DNA of 43,675 nt from an uncultured Candidatus Saccharibacteria bacterium (GCA_964627275.1 CAZVHT010000036.1:1-43675), one strand, 5' to 3'. Counted from the first letter of the stretch, positions 1,317 through 3,395 are shown. Numbers and translations are program-made. The notes: generated by a model not told the origin, from the letters alone.

Positions 1317-1368
1317 GAAATGCTGGCGATAAGTAGGTTGTTGGACGATTTCAATGTGCCAACTCTTC

Positions 1369-1435
1369 CTGCCTTTTGAGCCGATAGGTTCTTGATTTTC
1401 GAATCATGGCTTGGCTCTCTAGGCAGACCAATTTC
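1369..1435 (+). repeat. hairpin module A1
   Basis: CTGCCTTTTGAGCC-(about 30 nt)-GGCTCTCTAGGCAGACCAATTTC. CTGCCT (1369-1374) pairs with AGGCAG (1421-1426), and GAGCC (1378-1382) pairs with GGCTC (1413-1417). Homologous to A2. Confidence 0.85.
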
Positions 1436-1464
1436 TCAATTTGACCAAACCTTTGGGTTAGGTC

Positions 1465-1518
1465 CGGTAGAGGGTCGAAAACAGCCCTGTTTACGAAGCG
1501 CGCGATGACCCTCTACCG
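1465..1518 (+). other. perfect 12-bp hairpin between modules A1 and A2
   Basis: CGGTAGAGGGTC (1465-1476) is the exact reverse complement of GACCCTCTACCG (1507-1518). The loop is 30 nt. Confidence 0.85.
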
Positions 1519-1533
1519 CAGTTCTTTGATTTT

Positions 1534-1601
1534 CTGCCTTTTGAGTCGAAGCGGCTCTTGTAATTCGTCTACCGGCCTGGCTCTTTAGGCAGACCAATTT
1601 C
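1534..1601 (+). repeat. hairpin module A2
   Basis: CTGCCTTTTGAGTC-(about 31 nt)-GGCTCTTTAGGCAGACCAATTTC. It has the same flanking and stem sequences as A1. GAGTC/GGCTC keeps pairing through a G-U wobble. The interior differs from A1. Confidence 0.85.
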
Positions 1602-1670
1602 CTGTTTGTTGTGGTCGATGGCAATGGTGTTGTATAAAAAAGTTCATGACCTTTCAAATAGGAATCCTCT

Positions 1671-1735
1671 CCTCATGCGGTACGGACGAGTTGCGGTCTG
1701 TTTTTACGATACGCCTATTATCTCTCCGCATGAGG
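1671..1735 (+). other. perfect 10-bp hairpin in the non-coding leader
   Basis: CCTCATGCGG (1671-1680) pairs with CCGCATGAGG (1726-1735). The loop contains a TTTACGAT motif copy. Confidence 0.8.
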
Positions 1736-1934
1736 TTTCCTTTAAAGCTCATTTGAAAAAGTGAGTTTCAAAGGGAATTAGATTCCTTCGGTATTGTCGA
1801 CTTAATCTTTGTTTACGATTCGGTTATTGATCATACCGTAGCTCTTTGTTACTTTCATGTCCGAGGCTTTTAGCTGAGGACGAAACCAAAACCCGTCTTG
1901 CTCCGAAAGGTGCTAGACAAACCCAAAAAAAACC

Positions 1935-3284
1935 ATGAGCGCAAGCTCTATGTCAGTTCGATTAGTGGGCATCCGTCCACGCATCAAGCAAACTGCCGAC
2001 GGCGAAGCTCGTCCGACGCAAGTGTGCATCCTCGGTCCGGGAGAATTCAAACTCCTCCTGGACCTTCCCGACGAACAGGCCGAACTCGACTTCGTGCTTG
2101 GCCGTTTTCCCACGAGCTTTCGCAAGATCGCTCTAGGAGAAGACATCTCGCAGGTGGCCAAGCACCACATCAAGCTCGATTCAGACGGTAAGCCTGAAAA
2201 GGTTCCGGCGGAGTATGAAGGTTTACGTCAGGGTGATGTCGTTGCCATGGCGCTTGGTGGAAACGGGGATTACCTCGCATTCGCTCTGTCTCGCCAAGGT
2301 GAAAAAGTTGGCGCTGTGGTCGAGCGCATCGCGTCGTTTATACTTCAGGAGAAACGTGGTGCGATGAAGAAGGATGACGATGCGTTCCTCCTTGCAACAC
2401 TCGTTCAGACGGAGCGAGCCTTCTTCACTCCAGTGTTCGTTCGGGATCGCAAGATTGTGATGGTGCGCGAGCTTTACCGTTTGCGTTCCGACACGATGAA
2501 AGCTCGGATGGGGTGTGCGGCGCGTCTCCGCCAGCGGTTCATTGGCAAGATCTTCTGCAACGAAGCTGGCCAGTTTCCCGAAGGTGCAATCGAGCAGGAG
2601 TTCGACGCTCAAAAGGCGACGGACATGATCCTGCTGGCGCTCGAGACCGAAGAGACCCGTGCAAATCGCGAGCTTCTGAAGGCCGTCGAGGCGACCGATG
2701 TCTGGGAACAGGTGTTTGAACCGATCGAAGGTATCGGCCCGGCGATCGCGGCACGGCTCATCACTGCCATCCAAGATATTCGTCGTTTTTCCAAGGATTC
2801 CAAGCTGAGGAAATTCTGCGGTGCGCATGTTCTCGCCGATGGTCGTTTCCCGCGTCGTCGCAAGAATGAGGTGGCCAATTGGCATCCGGATGCTCGGCAG
2901 GCGCTCTATCTCTTGGCGGATCAGTTCTTCAAGCGTCCGGGGTCGGACTGGGGCGTTAAGCTCCGGGCGAATATGGAAGAGTTCCGCAGGAAACACTCGT
3001 ACCCCGTTCTTGTCGTCAATCGTGGCGAACCGACGGAGGAAACGTTTGTGCTCGTGCCAGGCACGTTCACAAAGGACTCGAAGGGAAATTACACCTTTGA
3101 GAATGAGTCAACCAAGTGCGTTGTCCGCGGGGTGATGAAGTACAACGACCTCCACATCCGCAAGATGGGTATGTGGCGGACGGTGTCCCAGTTCGTCAAC
3201 TTCCTCTTTGACGAGTGGTGGAAGCTAGAGAAGGTCGCGGTGGCCAAGCCCGAGAAAAGTTCCGACGACGTGGCGGCAGCTTAA
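1935..3284 (+). CDS. IS110-family-like (DEDD/RuvC-like N-domain plus HhH Transposase_20-like C-domain) protein, divergent, 449 aa
   Basis: Several segments match the conserved IS110 layout. IEGIGPAIAARLITAIQDIRRFSKDSKLRKFCG (aa 264-296) resembles the IS110 helix-hairpin-helix block. VVAMALGGNGDYLAFAL...KKDDDAFLLATL...VRELYRLRSDTMKARMGCAARLRQ and ...ARQALYLLADQ also fit. Assignment is by eye only. Confidence 0.7.
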   Translation: MSASSMSVRLVGIRPRIKQTADGEARPTQVCILGPGEFKLLLDLPDEQAELDFVLGRFPTSFRKIALGEDISQVAKHHIKLDSDGKPEKVPAEYEGLRQGDVVAMALGGNGDYLAFALSRQGEKVGAVVERIASFILQEKRGAMKKDDDAFLLATLVQTERAFFTPVFVRDRKIVMVRELYRLRSDTMKARMGCAARLRQRFIGKIFCNEAGQFPEGAIEQEFDAQKATDMILLALETEETRANRELLKAVEATDVWEQVFEPIEGIGPAIAARLITAIQDIRRFSKDSKLRKFCGAHVLADGRFPRRRKNEVANWHPDARQALYLLADQFFKRPGSDWGVKLRANMEEFRRKHSYPVLVVNRGEPTEETFVLVPGTFTKDSKGNYTFENESTKCVVRGVMKYNDLHIRKMGMWRTVSQFVNFLFDEWWKLEKVAVAKPEKSSDDVAAA

Positions 3285-3342
3285 TTTGTTCTTTTGGGAG
3301 ATGACCGAAAAAATGTTTACGATCGTATTCATGTCTCTCTCT

Positions 3343-3374
3343 GCCCGCACTGGATTTTCTGGTGCGGGCTTTTT
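3343..3374 (+). terminator. rho-independent terminator after the IS110-like ORF
   Basis: GCCCGCAC (3343-3350) pairs with GTGCGGGC (3362-3369), followed by TTTTT. Confidence 0.8.
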
Positions 3375-3395
3375 ATTTGATCTGTGTGTTTGATG

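What the first reader, a model, noticed from the sequence alone, without database searches (positions are those of the whole stretch)
1322..3380. GC-rich island of about 2 kb between alaS and an ftsA-like gene, carrying one IS110-like ORF, a long structured leader and its own terminator
Seen in the sequence:
- Base composition switches abruptly from the AT-leaning host background to clearly GC-rich at about 1322. It switches back after the terminator at 3343-3374.
- The island holds one ORF of 449 aa. Its HhH block (IEGIGPAIAARLITAIQDIRRFSKDSKLRKFCG) and N-terminal layout resemble IS110-family DEDD recombinases.
- No terminal inverted repeats are visible, which fits IS110-type elements.

Inference: this is a horizontally acquired, IS110-related unit. 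It is the only clearly foreign multi-part locus in the window. The non-coding part is much larger than in described IS110 elements.
Basis: partly seen in the sequence, partly recalled or inferred. Interest (0 to 1): 0.8.

Follow-up and report, generated by a model that had tools for sequence, protein, structure and literature searches.

The report
Guide-RNA array with dead TasR protein
This is not an IS110 jumping gene but a TIGR-Tas locus: a short array of dual-spacer guide RNAs plus a nuclease-dead RNA-guided DNA-binding protein (TasR), a system first described in 2025-2026, sitting between alaS and an ftsA-like gene of a Patescibacteria (CPR) genome.

Summary
The ORF at 1935-3284, its terminator and a structured upstream region are real. 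The GC shift is not at 1322. Only the ORF is GC-rich (0.564). The 640-nt leader (0.436) matches the host (0.447).

The protein passes NCBIfam TIGR_Tas_endo (124.5 bits, cutoff 100) and fails the IS110 models (53.5 vs 140). Its best solved relative by sequence and by fold is TIGR-TasR (PDB 9MTY), ahead of IS621. Three of the four RuvC catalytic positions are non-acidic (R14, A106, K146). In homologues, positions 1 and 2 are never acidic.

The "leader" is a stem-loop TIGR array. There are five upstream units and one downstream unit, each of the form stem-CGA-N9-UG-loop-CGA-N9-UG-stem, between a promoter-like site and the terminator. The same grammar recurs on the tas strand in dozens of CPR loci. 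A covariance model built only from those loci recovers window units and finds none in three tasR-less relatives.

Those three closest relatives have alaS and ftsA-like 25-45 nt apart. Two more distant relatives carry TIGR-tasR at the same junction, so gain versus loss is unresolved. GC excess of tasR is family-wide (57 of 57 loci), not a sign of recent transfer.

The most likely function is RNA-guided transcriptional repression, inferred from published relatives. No targets were found. Verdict: a new member of a known kind.

The parts
1288..1316 (+). Promoter-like site: TTGACA (1288-1293, overlapping the alaS stop codon at 1294-1296), a 17-nt spacer, then TATAAG (1311-1316). It is the presumed start of array transcription.
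   Evidence: Read directly from the sequence. The scan tool did not list it because it requires T at position 6 of the -10 hexamer. Analogous promoter-like sites precede the array cassettes in L001 and L094. This is an inference.
1324..1361 (+). T0, a doubtful or degenerate first unit: tgg-CGA-TAAGTAGGT-TG-TTGGA-CGA-TTTCAATG-TG-cca.
   Evidence: Found only with the relaxed grammar. It has a 3-bp stem and folds with z -0.6. Low confidence.
1369..1426 (+). tigRNA unit T1 (CUGCCU/AGGCAG plus GAGC/GCUC stem class). Box C is CGA at 1382-1384. Spacer A is TAGGTTCT (1385-1392, 8 nt). The loop is UGAUUUUCGA. Spacer B is ATCATGGCT (1403-1411). Box D is UG at 1412-1413.
   Evidence: It folds with z -3.3. 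The scaffold is shared with T3 and with four L001 units, while the spacers differ.
1465..1518 (+). tigRNA unit T2. It has a 12-bp perfect stem. Box C is CGA at 1476-1478. Spacer A is AAACAGCCC (1479-1487). The loop is UGUUUACGA. Spacer B is AGCGCGCGA (1497-1505). Box D is UG at 1506-1507.
   Evidence: Strict grammar hit. Covariance model R1, built from other loci, scores it 33.4 bits with E 6e-6. It folds with z -4.6.
1534..1592 (+). tigRNA unit T3, a paralogue of T1. Box C is CGA at 1547-1549. Spacer A is AGCGGCTCT (1550-1558). The loop is UGUAAUUCGU. Spacer B is CTACCGGCC (1569-1577). Box D is UG at 1578-1579.
   Evidence: Strict grammar hit, with alignment. It folds with z -2.4.
1671..1735 (+). 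tigRNA unit T4 (CCUCAUGCGG/CCGCAUGAGG stem). Box C is CGA at 1687-1689. Spacer A is GTTGCGGTC (1690-1698). The loop is UGUUUUUACGA. Spacer B is TACGCCTAT (1710-1718). The final box D is UA, not UG.
   Evidence: R1 gives a weak match with E 3.6. The orthologous unit in L001 has identical stems (20 of 20) and different spacers (7 of 18). It folds with z -3.7.
1738..1775 (+). Conserved hairpin without spacers. Its role is unknown.
   Evidence: It folds with z -4.7. It is conserved in L001, with both arms changed in a way that keeps pairing.
1790..1837 (+). tigRNA unit T5. Box C is CGA at 1798-1800. Spacer A is CTTAATCTT (1801-1809). The loop is UGUUUACGA. Spacer B is TTCGGTTAT (1819-1827). Box D is UG at 1828-1829. 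It is followed by the linker GTAGCTCTTT (1838-1847), which contains CUU.
   Evidence: Strict grammar hit. R1 scores it 19.0 bits with E 0.018. It has an orthologous unit in L001.
1858..1886 (+). Element in the 5' UTR: UGUCC-hairpin-GGACGAAAC. This is box D, a hairpin and box C, without spacers or an outer stem.
   Evidence: Conserved in L001 and L095. Its function is only conjecture: either a TasR half-site or a decayed unit.
1935..3284 (+). tasR, 449 aa. It has an N-terminal RuvC-like domain with three of the four catalytic positions non-acidic (R14, A106, K146; D149 kept), then a coiled coil, then a Nop-like RNA-binding domain with a beta-rich insertion at residues 358-402.
   Evidence: NCBIfam TIGR_Tas_endo scores 124.5 bits against a cutoff of 100, and all 32 aligned relatives match it at E <= 0.001. 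A profile search of PDB gives 9MTY at E 1e-21 and IS621 at 0.41. The AF2 model has pLDDT 89.6, and Foldseek's top hit is 9MTY.
3294..3341 (+). tigRNA unit T6, downstream of tasR. The stem is GGGAGA/UCUCUC. Box C is the variant UGA (3302-3304). Spacer A is CCGAAAAAA (3305-3313). The loop is UGUUUACGA. Spacer B is TCGTATTCA (3323-3331). Box D is UG at 3332-3333.
   Evidence: R1 scores it 18.4 bits with E 0.024. The same stem class sits directly after tasR in L001.
3343..3379 (+). Intrinsic terminator that closes the cassette.
   Evidence: 12 pairs, 8 of them G-C, followed by TTTTTATTT.
3394..3410 (+). Host ftsA-like promoter -10 element (TGTATAAT, 3394-3401) and start codon (3408-3410). This marks the right edge of the insert.
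   Evidence: Alignment with the empty sites of L082, L084 and L085.

Best explanation
The segment 1297 to about 3380 is a stem-loop TIGR-Tas system of the Patescibacteria (CPR) TasR clade.

Proposed mechanism:
1. A promoter-like site just after the alaS stop codon would drive one transcript. This transcript carries five (perhaps six) stem-loop tigRNA units, then the tasR mRNA, then one more unit, and ends at an intrinsic terminator.
2. Each unit is a hairpin. Its loop holds two 9-nt spacers, each preceded by box C ((A)CGA) and followed by box D (UG(U)).
3. The units are cut out, probably at CUU-containing linkers.
4. Each unit is bound by a TasR dimer. The two spacers pair with opposite strands of an 18-bp DNA site.
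5. Because the RuvC-like domain has lost three of its four catalytic residues, the complex binds DNA without cutting it. It most likely acts as an RNA-guided transcriptional repressor.

What is shown here: the protein family, the array grammar, its conservation across loci, the non-acidic catalytic positions, and the presence/absence polymorphism.

What is inferred: the promoter and co-transcription; processing, DNA binding and repression (from published relatives CsTasR and PateTasR); and the targets, which remain unknown.

The confidence of 0.88 is for the identity of the locus as a stem-loop TIGR-TasR system. The repressor function on its own is about 0.6.
For: Protein:
- NCBIfam TIGR_Tas_endo has E 5.7e-36 and 124.5 bits against a cutoff of 100. 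All 32 aligned relatives match it at E <= 0.001.
- A profile search against PDB sequences gives TaTasR 9MTY at E 1.1e-21 and IS621 at E 0.41.
- The AF2 model has pLDDT 89.6 and pTM 0.83. Foldseek ranks 9MTY first (2.6e-11), then IS621, then TasH.
- More than 480 homologues were found; the sources that name a taxon give Patescibacteria/CPR groups.

Catalytic residues:
- The family motif is GIR(H/P)R in place of GID.
- In 120 homologues, position 1 is R72/V11/Q7 and so on, never D or E (0 of 102). Position 2 is V/I/S/A and so on, never D or E (0 of 96).
- This matches published CsTasR, which has R8 and V126 (bioRxiv 10.64898/2026.09.09.750476).

Array in the window:
- The strict grammar CGA-N9-TG-N4-8-CGN-N9-TG gives 3 hits within 355 nt. 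Shuffles give about 1.2 per whole window on both strands.

Array across related loci:
- Over 80 related loci plus the window, the tas strand has 231 cores with a mean adjacent stem of 4.4 bp, and 131 have at least 3 bp.
- The opposite strand has 98 cores with a mean stem of 0.57 bp, and 5 have at least 3 bp.
- An alignment of 81 units shows features the search did not impose. These are A before CGA, U after UG, and inner-loop pairs that are 98% paired and covary. The covariation score is 0.70 against 0.18 in shuffles.
- Model R1, built without the window, finds T2 (E 6e-6), T5 (0.018) and T6 (0.024).
- R1 also finds many units in L094 and L095, which were not used to build it, and none in 38 kb of tasR-less relatives.
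- Scaffolds are syntenic with L001 while the spacers differ.

Literature:
- Faure et al. 2025 (PMC12045711) describe a CPR TasR clade with an inactive RuvC domain, Nop insertions and stem arrays.
- Xu et al. 2026 show that such TasRs bind DNA, do not cut it, and repress transcription.
Against: - There are no expression or processing data for this locus.
- Units T0, T1, T4 and T6 deviate from the consensus. T1 has an 8-nt spacer A, T4 has a UA box D, T6 has a UGA box C, and T0 has a weak stem. R1 misses T1 and T3 entirely.
- No target was found. The 43.7-kb window gives only one 3-mismatch hit, which is at chance level.
- There are no self-targets in the related loci and none in 663 kb of fetched loci.
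- Viral 18-mer matches are at the rate I estimated for chance, about one per scan from an assumed collection size.
- D149, the fourth catalytic position, is retained. Inactivity is inferred from sequence and from relatives, not measured.
- The assignment of catalytic positions rests on motif-level alignment to IS110 and TaTasR, not on a solved structure of this protein.
Confidence: 0.88

Rival explanations
1. This is an IS110-family insertion sequence. A DEDD recombinase, guided by a bridge RNA encoded in the upstream non-coding end, inserted the element between alaS and ftsA-like.
For: - There are weak Pfam Transposase_20 and DEDD_Tnp_IS110 matches and an NCBIfam transpos_IS110 hit at E 2e-14.
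- IS621 is the second-best fold match.
- The non-coding RNA region lies upstream of the ORF.
- There are no terminal inverted repeats.
- Relatives have empty sites.
- A related locus sits at a different junction.
Against: - transpos_IS110 scores 53.5 bits against a cutoff of 140, and transpos_IS110_2 scores 28.6 against 180. TIGR_Tas_endo passes its cutoff.
- The first, second and third DEDD positions are R, A and K. Positions 1 and 2 are never acidic in the homologues where the motif was found.
- The sequence profile prefers TasR over IS621 by 20 orders of magnitude.
- The leader resolves into tandem dual-spacer units shared with dozens of tas loci, not a two-loop bridge RNA.
- There is only one copy in the window.
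- The same junction is occupied in distant relatives by diverged copies (62% and 56% identity), not by near-identical IS copies.
Confidence: 0.03
2. This is an active TIGR-TasR nuclease system that cleaves invading DNA, working as a defence system like TaTasR or ParTasR.
For: - It belongs to the same family as the cleaving TasRs.
- D149 is retained.
- The NCBIfam model name says "endonuclease".
Against: - Three of the four catalytic positions are non-acidic here, and positions 1 and 2 are non-acidic across the clade.
- Published CPR-clade relatives CsTasR and PateTasR show no cleavage in vitro (bioRxiv 10.64898/2026.09.09.750476).
- The units are of the stem-loop type, not the 36-nt dual-repeat type that goes with the active enzymes.
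Confidence: 0.05
3. This is a decaying or functionless remnant. The array and gene are relics no longer under selection for guide function.
For: - Several units are degenerate (T0, T1, T4, T6).
- No targets were found.
- The locus has been lost from close relatives.
Against: - The ORF is intact, with invariant family residues preserved and a confident fold.
- Stems are maintained by compensatory change.
- The promoter-like site and the terminator are intact.
- Three units fit the consensus exactly.
Confidence: 0.04

Closest known systems
CsTasR (Candidatus Staskawiczbacteria) stem-loop TIGR-TasR, CPR clade (Xu et al., bioRxiv 10.64898/2026.09.09.750476; clade first noted in Faure et al. 2025, PMC12045711)
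   Same: - It comes from a CPR host.
- It is a TasR with a RuvC-like domain whose first two catalytic positions are R and a small hydrophobic residue.
- It has insertions in the Nop/CTD region.
- Its tigRNA units are of the stem-loop type and lie both upstream and downstream of tasR.
- It has two spacers of about 9-10 nt between box C and box D, and CUU-containing linkers.
- A Staskawiczbacteria homologue (L079) is 42% identical to the window protein.
   Different: - The window protein is shorter (449 vs 547 aa), with a smaller RuvC insertion.
- Most window units have a plain 9-10 nt inter-spacer loop (UGUUUACGA) rather than a 5-bp inner hairpin.
- Box C here is (A)CGA.
- Whether L079 is the published CsTasR was not checked.
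- Activity is untested here.
TaTasR / ParTasR dual-repeat TIGR-TasR (PDB 9MTY; Faure et al. 2025)
   Same: - It is the best solved-structure match by sequence profile (E 1e-21) and by fold.
- It has the same domain order: RuvC-like, coiled coil, Nop.
- It uses dual 9-nt spacers with a box D UG.
   Different: - Those enzymes keep four acidic catalytic residues and cut DNA.
- Their guides are uniform 36-nt dual-repeat units with box C CCA.
- Here the RuvC domain is degenerate, the guides are stem-loops of about 48-65 nt with heterogeneous stems, and box C is CGA.
IS110/IS621 bridge-RNA-guided recombinases (PDB 8WT6/8WT9)
   Same: - It is a homologous RuvC-like plus RNA-binding (Transposase_20/Nop-like) protein.
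- It is the second-best fold match.
- It has a non-coding guide RNA next to the gene.
   Different: - The window protein has no DEDD tetrad and scores far below the family cutoffs.
- The RNA is a tandem array of small dual-spacer hairpins rather than one bridge RNA with target and donor loops.
- There is no evidence of transposition.
Archaeal/eukaryotic box C/D sRNP (Nop5/Nop56/58 with C/D guide RNA)
   Same: - It has a Nop-type RNA-binding domain with a coiled-coil dimer.
- Its guide has two guide segments, each flanked by C and D boxes and closed by a terminal stem.
   Different: - Only weak fold matches were found (E 0.05-0.5).
- There is no fibrillarin or L7Ae partner nearby.
- In TIGR-Tas the target is DNA.

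Membership tests
TIGR-Tas (TasR, stem-loop type) | Tas protein with the family's Nop-type RNA-binding domain | tested here: met
   NCBIfam NF052498 TIGR_Tas_endo scores 124.5 bits against a cutoff of 100, over residues 178-428. All 32 relatives match at E <= 0.001. The profile hit to 9MTY has E 1e-21.
TIGR-Tas (TasR, stem-loop type) | N-terminal RuvC-like domain fused to the Nop domain (TasR rather than TasA or TasH) | tested here: met
   The Foldseek alignment to the 9MTY chains spans 328-339 columns of 292-294 residues. The N-terminal 165 residues form a mixed beta/alpha domain in a confident model. There is a partial DEDD_Tnp_IS110 match at residues 103-200.
TIGR-Tas (TasR, stem-loop type) | [quoted passage not shown] | tested here: met
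   Three exact CGA-N9-UG...CGN-N9-UG units and three variant units lie within 1369-1838 and 3294-3341. Chance expectation is about 1.2 per whole window. The grammar recurs on the tas strand of related loci.
TIGR-Tas (TasR, stem-loop type) | Each unit closed by a variable palindromic stem instead of an edge repeat | tested here: met
   Mean adjacent stem is 4.4 bp on the tas strand and 0.57 bp on the other strand. Covariation score is 0.70 against 0.18 in shuffles, and stem columns that were not selected for are 62-94% paired. Window units fold with z from -2.0 to -4.6.
TIGR-Tas (TasR, stem-loop type) | CPR-clade trait: catalytically inactive RuvC domain | tested here: met
   At sequence level only. 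The window protein has R14, A106 and K146 at catalytic positions 1-3. Positions 1 and 2 are never D or E in homologues (0 of 102 and 0 of 96). Enzymatic inactivity was not measured.
TIGR-Tas (TasR, stem-loop type) | CUU motif in the linkers at stem bases (a feature reported for stem-loop TIGR arrays, at processing sites) | tested here: inconclusive
   CUCUU lies before T1 (1363-1367), UUCUUU before T3, and GUAGCUCUUU after T5 (1838-1847). The last is also seen in L001 and L094. No statistics or RNA ends are available.
TIGR-Tas (TasR, stem-loop type) | tigRNAs expressed, processed and bound by Tas; RNA-guided binding of an 18-bp DNA target | not testable with these tools
   This needs small-RNA sequencing, RNP purification, and EMSA or reporter assays.
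IS110 family insertion sequence | Protein reaches the family's curated model thresholds | tested here: not met
   NCBIfam transpos_IS110 scores 53.5 against 140, and transpos_IS110_2 scores 28.6 against 180. Pfam DEDD_Tnp_IS110 scores 24.8 against 29. Only Transposase_20 passes (25.7 against 21.3). That domain also occurs in TasR: the depositors named 9MTY a Transposase IS116/IS110/IS902 C-terminal domain protein.
IS110 family insertion sequence | Intact DEDD catalytic tetrad in the RuvC-like domain | tested here: not met
   The four positions read R14, A106, K146 and D149.
IS110 family insertion sequence | Conserved serine nucleophile in the C-terminal Tnp domain | tested here: inconclusive
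   The region aligned to IS621 reads GRFPRRRKNEVANW, with no serine conserved across the family. The exact IS621 catalytic position was not mapped.
IS110 family insertion sequence | Single bridge RNA with target-binding and donor-binding loops that match the element's target and ends | tested here: not met
   The non-coding region is accounted for by tandem tigRNA units. No Rfam family matched. I did not verify that Rfam holds a bridge-RNA model.
IS110 family insertion sequence | Multiple near-identical copies or evidence of recent transposition | tested here: inconclusive
   There is no second copy in the 43.7-kb window. The closest homologue anywhere is 67% identical. The rest of the genome is unavailable.

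The most novel reading that the evidence does not exclude
Three linked readings go beyond the published picture, and all are untested.

1. TIGR-tasR cassettes in this CPR clade may behave as relocatable promoter-to-terminator modules. They would land, or persist, immediately behind a host gene's stop codon or promoter. The supporting pattern is the same alaS|ftsA-like junction occupied in the window and two more distant relatives, empty in three close ones, and the nearest TasR sitting at a different junction (mnmA|mrr).

2. Guide specificities may evolve by duplication and point mutation of spacers inside conserved scaffolds, rather than by CRISPR-like acquisition. Paralogous and orthologous units keep 93-100% scaffold identity but only 39-50% spacer identity.

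3. A spacer-less box D-hairpin-box C element in the tasR 5' UTR could be a TasR half-site for autoregulation.
Probability: 0.2. Interest if true: 0.55.

Novelty: new member of a known kind. Interest (0 to 1): 0.35.

Why it matters
The main result is a re-classification. A locus that sequence annotation and a careful reader would both call an IS110 transposase is an RNA-guided DNA-binding system, TIGR-Tas.

The class itself was described in 2025-2026, so the locus does not open a new category.

Its modest value is context:
- It lies in 43.7 kb of chromosomal sequence with clear orthologous empty sites.
- It gives explicit guide pairs (six pairs of 9-nt spacers) that can be searched against the complete genome, its phages and its host organism.
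- Published work states that natural targets, spacer origin and native role of CPR TIGR systems are still unknown.

The comparative observations are small, testable leads on how these systems move and how their guides change. They are:
- site sharing across relatives combined with presence/absence at that site;
- conserved scaffolds carrying fast-changing spacers;
- family-wide GC excess of tasR;
- a conserved C-terminal Ala-Ala.

Tried and rejected
- **IS110 membership.** Rejected on curated thresholds and catalytic residues.
- **Rfam.** No family matched at gathering score in the window. Only chance-level hits appeared in 1000-3700. No tRNA or tmRNA was found.
- **Tandem Repeats Finder.** It finds nothing in the array because the units are too dissimilar.
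- **Other strict-grammar hits (7382 and 39499).** Not recovered by model R1, so treated as chance.
- **R1 hit at 32865-32917 (E about 1).** It lies inside a minus-strand ORF, so treated as chance.
- **GC-rich patch at 7000-7300.** It is the rpsK region.
- **Targets in the window.** I tested both possible geometries, rc(A)+B and B+rc(A). The window gave only one 3-mismatch hit for T3 (about 0.05 expected per query, over 16 queries).
- **Targets in related loci.** No self-targets were found in 80 related loci beyond control orientations. Nothing with 2 or fewer mismatches was found in the non-viral loci fetched (663 kb in all).
- **Targets in viral contigs (six exact 18-mer scans).**
  - T2 gave 0 and 0 hits.
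  - T5 gave 2 and 0. The two hits are one homologous AAA-ATPase-like gene in two phage contigs, L087 and L088.
  - T3 gave 1 and 4. The four hits are two independent sites.
  - This is roughly the one chance hit per scan that I estimated from an assumed collection size (not computed).
  - No second guide matches the same contigs.
- **Target geometry.** I could not settle it from the papers.
- **Target-site duplication.** Both ends of the insert carry a T-run and a TATAA-like box. These are generic terminator and promoter features, so no duplication is claimed.
- **Second copy.** No second copy of tasR or of the array exists in the window.
- **Exact-protein look-up.** The neighbouring 457-aa ORF is not on record.

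
Full report
**1. Observation**

The ORF at 1935-3284 (449 aa, + strand) exists. It contains the quoted helix-hairpin-helix block. A strong intrinsic terminator lies at 3343-3369, followed by a T-run.

The upstream non-coding stretch is highly structured. The + strand folds with z -5.3 and the - strand with z -3.4.

The compositional claim is only half right:
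- GC in 1297-1934 is 0.436, the same as the window mean of 0.447.
- GC rises only at about 1900, where the ORF begins.
- The ORF has GC 0.564 and GC3 0.658, against 0.48-0.51 in alaS, ftsA-like and the next ORF.
- The ORF is the GC maximum of the whole window.

**2. The protein**

Pfam gives weak IS110-type matches. Transposase_20 scores 25.7 bits, just above its cutoff. DEDD_Tnp_IS110 scores 24.8 bits, below its cutoff of 29, and lacks the N-terminal third of the profile.

NCBIfam is decisive:
- TIGR_Tas_endo (NF052498) scores 124.5 bits against a cutoff of 100.
- The two IS110 models score 53.5 against 140 and 28.6 against 180.
- All 32 aligned relatives match the Tas model at E <= 0.001.

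The protein has more than 480 homologues. Where sources name a taxon, they are Patescibacteria/CPR metagenome-assembled genomes. The closest is 67% identical.

Structural evidence agrees:
- A family profile hits the solved TIGR-TasR (9MTY) at E 1e-21 and IS621 at only 0.41.
- An AlphaFold model built from the family alignment is confident (pLDDT 89.6, pTM 0.83).
- Its best PDB fold match is 9MTY, followed by IS621, ISCro4 and TasH. Box C/D Nop proteins are far behind.

**3. Catalytic residues**

The first beta-strand reads VGIRPR where RuvC/DEDD enzymes have an Asp. The second position, in VVAMALGG, is Ala. The KKDDDA motif aligns with the NDENDS motif of TaTasR and the KTDTVDA motif of IS621, so the third position is Lys and only the fourth Asp (D149) is kept.

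Across 120 homologues:
- Position 1 is R, V, Q, T and so on, never D or E (0 of 102).
- Position 2 is V, I, S, A and so on, never D or E (0 of 96).

This is the pattern published for CsTasR (R8 and V126), which binds DNA but does not cut it (bioRxiv 10.64898/2026.09.09.750476).

**4. The "leader" is a guide-RNA array**

The two 70-nt direct repeats (1366-1435 and 1531-1601) and the neighbouring hairpins share one grammar:

5' stem arm - CGA - 9 nt - UG - short loop - CGA - 9 nt - UG - 3' stem arm.

That is two spacers, each between a box C and a box D, closed by a stem. This is how Faure et al. 2025 (PMC12045711) and Xu et al. 2026 describe stem-loop tigRNAs.

Units in the window:
- T2 (1465-1518), T3 (1534-1592) and T5 (1790-1837) fit the grammar exactly.
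- T1 (1369-1426) has an 8-nt spacer A.
- T4 (1671-1735) ends in UA rather than UG.
- T6 (3294-3341, just after the stop codon) has UGA as its box C.
- T0 (1324-1361) is doubtful.

The strict pattern occurs three times within 355 nt. Shuffles give about 1.2 per whole window on both strands.

**5. Independent support from other loci**

Across 80 CPR genomes that encode relatives, plus the window, one search gives:
- The tas strand has 231 cores, with a mean of 4.4 flanking base pairs.
- The other strand has 98 cores, with a mean of 0.57.

Eighty-one units from other loci align without ambiguity. They show features I did not impose:
- A before each CGA.
- U after each UG.
- Covarying pairs inside the inter-spacer loop.
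- Stems kept by compensatory change.

A covariance model built only from those units gives these results:
- It recovers T2 (E 6e-6), T5 (0.018) and T6 (0.024) in the window, and nothing credible elsewhere.
- It finds many units, all on the tas strand, in L094 and L095, which were not used to build it.
- It finds none in 38 kb from three tasR-less relatives.
- It misses T1 and T3.

The closest locus (L001) has the same stem classes in the same order around tasR, but with different spacers.

**6. Cassette anatomy**

The elements appear in this order:
- TTGACA-17-TATAAG (1288-1316, read by eye) directly follows the alaS stop codon.
- Units T0 to T4 come next.
- A conserved spacer-less hairpin follows (1738-1775).
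- T5 comes next.
- A conserved linker GTAGCTCTTT follows.
- A box D-hairpin-box C element lies in the 5' UTR (1858-1886).
- Then come tasR, T6 and the terminator.

L001 and L094 show the same promoter-units-terminator modules. In L001 the module is repeated four times.

**7. Is it an insertion?**

The three closest relatives by FtsA-like identity (75%, 68% and 56%) have alaS and ftsA-like only 25-45 nt apart, with no tasR.

However:
- L094 carries TIGR-tasR at the same junction. Its TasR is 62% identical, its FtsA-like only 37%, and its AlaS C-terminus 72%.
- The contig of P0006 (TasR 56% identical) also carries it there.
- The nearest TasR (L001) sits between mnmA and mrr. That junction is empty in L086.

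So the locus is a variable accessory module of this clade. Whether the window gained it or its close relatives lost it is unresolved.

GC excess cannot decide the matter. tasR is GC-richer than its flanks in 57 of 57 loci, by 10.9 points on average.

No transposase, integrase, inverted repeats or convincing target-site duplication were seen.

**8. Mechanism**

The most likely mechanism is this. The cassette is transcribed from its own promoter and the units are released. Each unit loads a TasR dimer, whose two spacers pair with opposite strands of an 18-bp site. The nuclease-dead complex then blocks transcription.

The family, the array, the non-acidic catalytic positions and the polymorphism are shown here. 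The promoter and co-transcription are inferred from the sequence. Processing, binding and repression are inferred from CsTasR and PateTasR.

Targets remain unknown:
- None in the window.
- None in the related loci.
- Viral 18-mer hits are at about the chance rate I estimated from an assumed collection size.

**9. Verdict**

This is a real feature with an incorrect family assignment. It is a new member of the recently described CPR stem-loop TIGR-TasR clade, with some small comparative leads. Interest is modest.

Noticed in passing
window 3270-3281 (C-terminus of TasR) and homologues P0001-P0120: The protein ends in ...DDVAAA. Of 120 homologues, 66 end in -AA (KAA 16, AAA 12, and so on). This resembles the C-terminal Ala-Ala of the ssrA degradation tag. 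It could mark free TasR for proteolysis. This is untested.
   Followed up: partly
window 1935-3284 and 57 related loci (L001-L079): tasR is GC-richer than its flanking DNA in 57 of 57 CPR loci, by 10.9 points on average. This holds for hosts with flank GC from 0.31 to 0.62. It is unexplained. It means GC excess is not evidence of recent transfer for this gene family.
   Followed up: partly
window 1858-1886; L001 about 3790-3815; L095 about 1410-1435: The tasR 5' UTR contains a conserved UGUCC-hairpin-GGACGAAAC element. This is box D, a hairpin and box C, without spacers or an outer stem. It could be a TasR half-site for autoregulation or a decayed unit.
   Followed up: partly
window 1738-1775; L001 3680-3722: A spacer-less hairpin (z -4.7) lies between units T4 and T5. 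It is conserved in the closest locus, with both arms changed in a way that keeps pairing. Its function is unknown.
   Followed up: partly
window T1 (1369-1426) vs T3 (1534-1592); T4 vs L001 3605-3675: Scaffolds are far more conserved than spacers, and spacer identity is above the 25% random level. The paralogues T1 and T3 share 27 of 29 outer-scaffold positions but only 9 of 18 spacer positions. The orthologous T4 units share 20 of 20 stem positions but 7 of 18 spacer positions (counted by hand from the alignments). This hints that guides change by point mutation within fixed scaffolds. The sample is small.
   Followed up: partly
L001 5150-6250: The closest locus has three further promoter-[four tigRNA units]-terminator cassettes downstream of tasR. 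One unit is duplicated with identical spacers (3459 and 5539). So arrays grow by segmental duplication of whole cassettes.
   Followed up: partly
L087 6217-6234 (-) and L088 3812-3829 (+), IMG/VR contigs: Both contigs have an exact 18/18 match to the T5 guide pair in geometry rc(A)+B. The match falls in a homologous gene that I judged to encode an AAA-ATPase-like protein (333 aa in L087), based on its P-loop and without a domain search. The number of hits is compatible with chance, and no other guide hits these contigs. This is a lead only.
   Followed up: yes
window 3394-3410 and empty sites L082, L084, L085: In all four genomes the ftsA-like gene has a TATAAT box only 6-7 nt upstream of its ATG. 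This implies a leaderless or near-leaderless mRNA.
   Followed up: no
window 32865-32917 (+): There is a weak tigRNA-model match (11.7 bits, E about 1) inside a minus-strand ORF. It is probably chance.
   Followed up: yes
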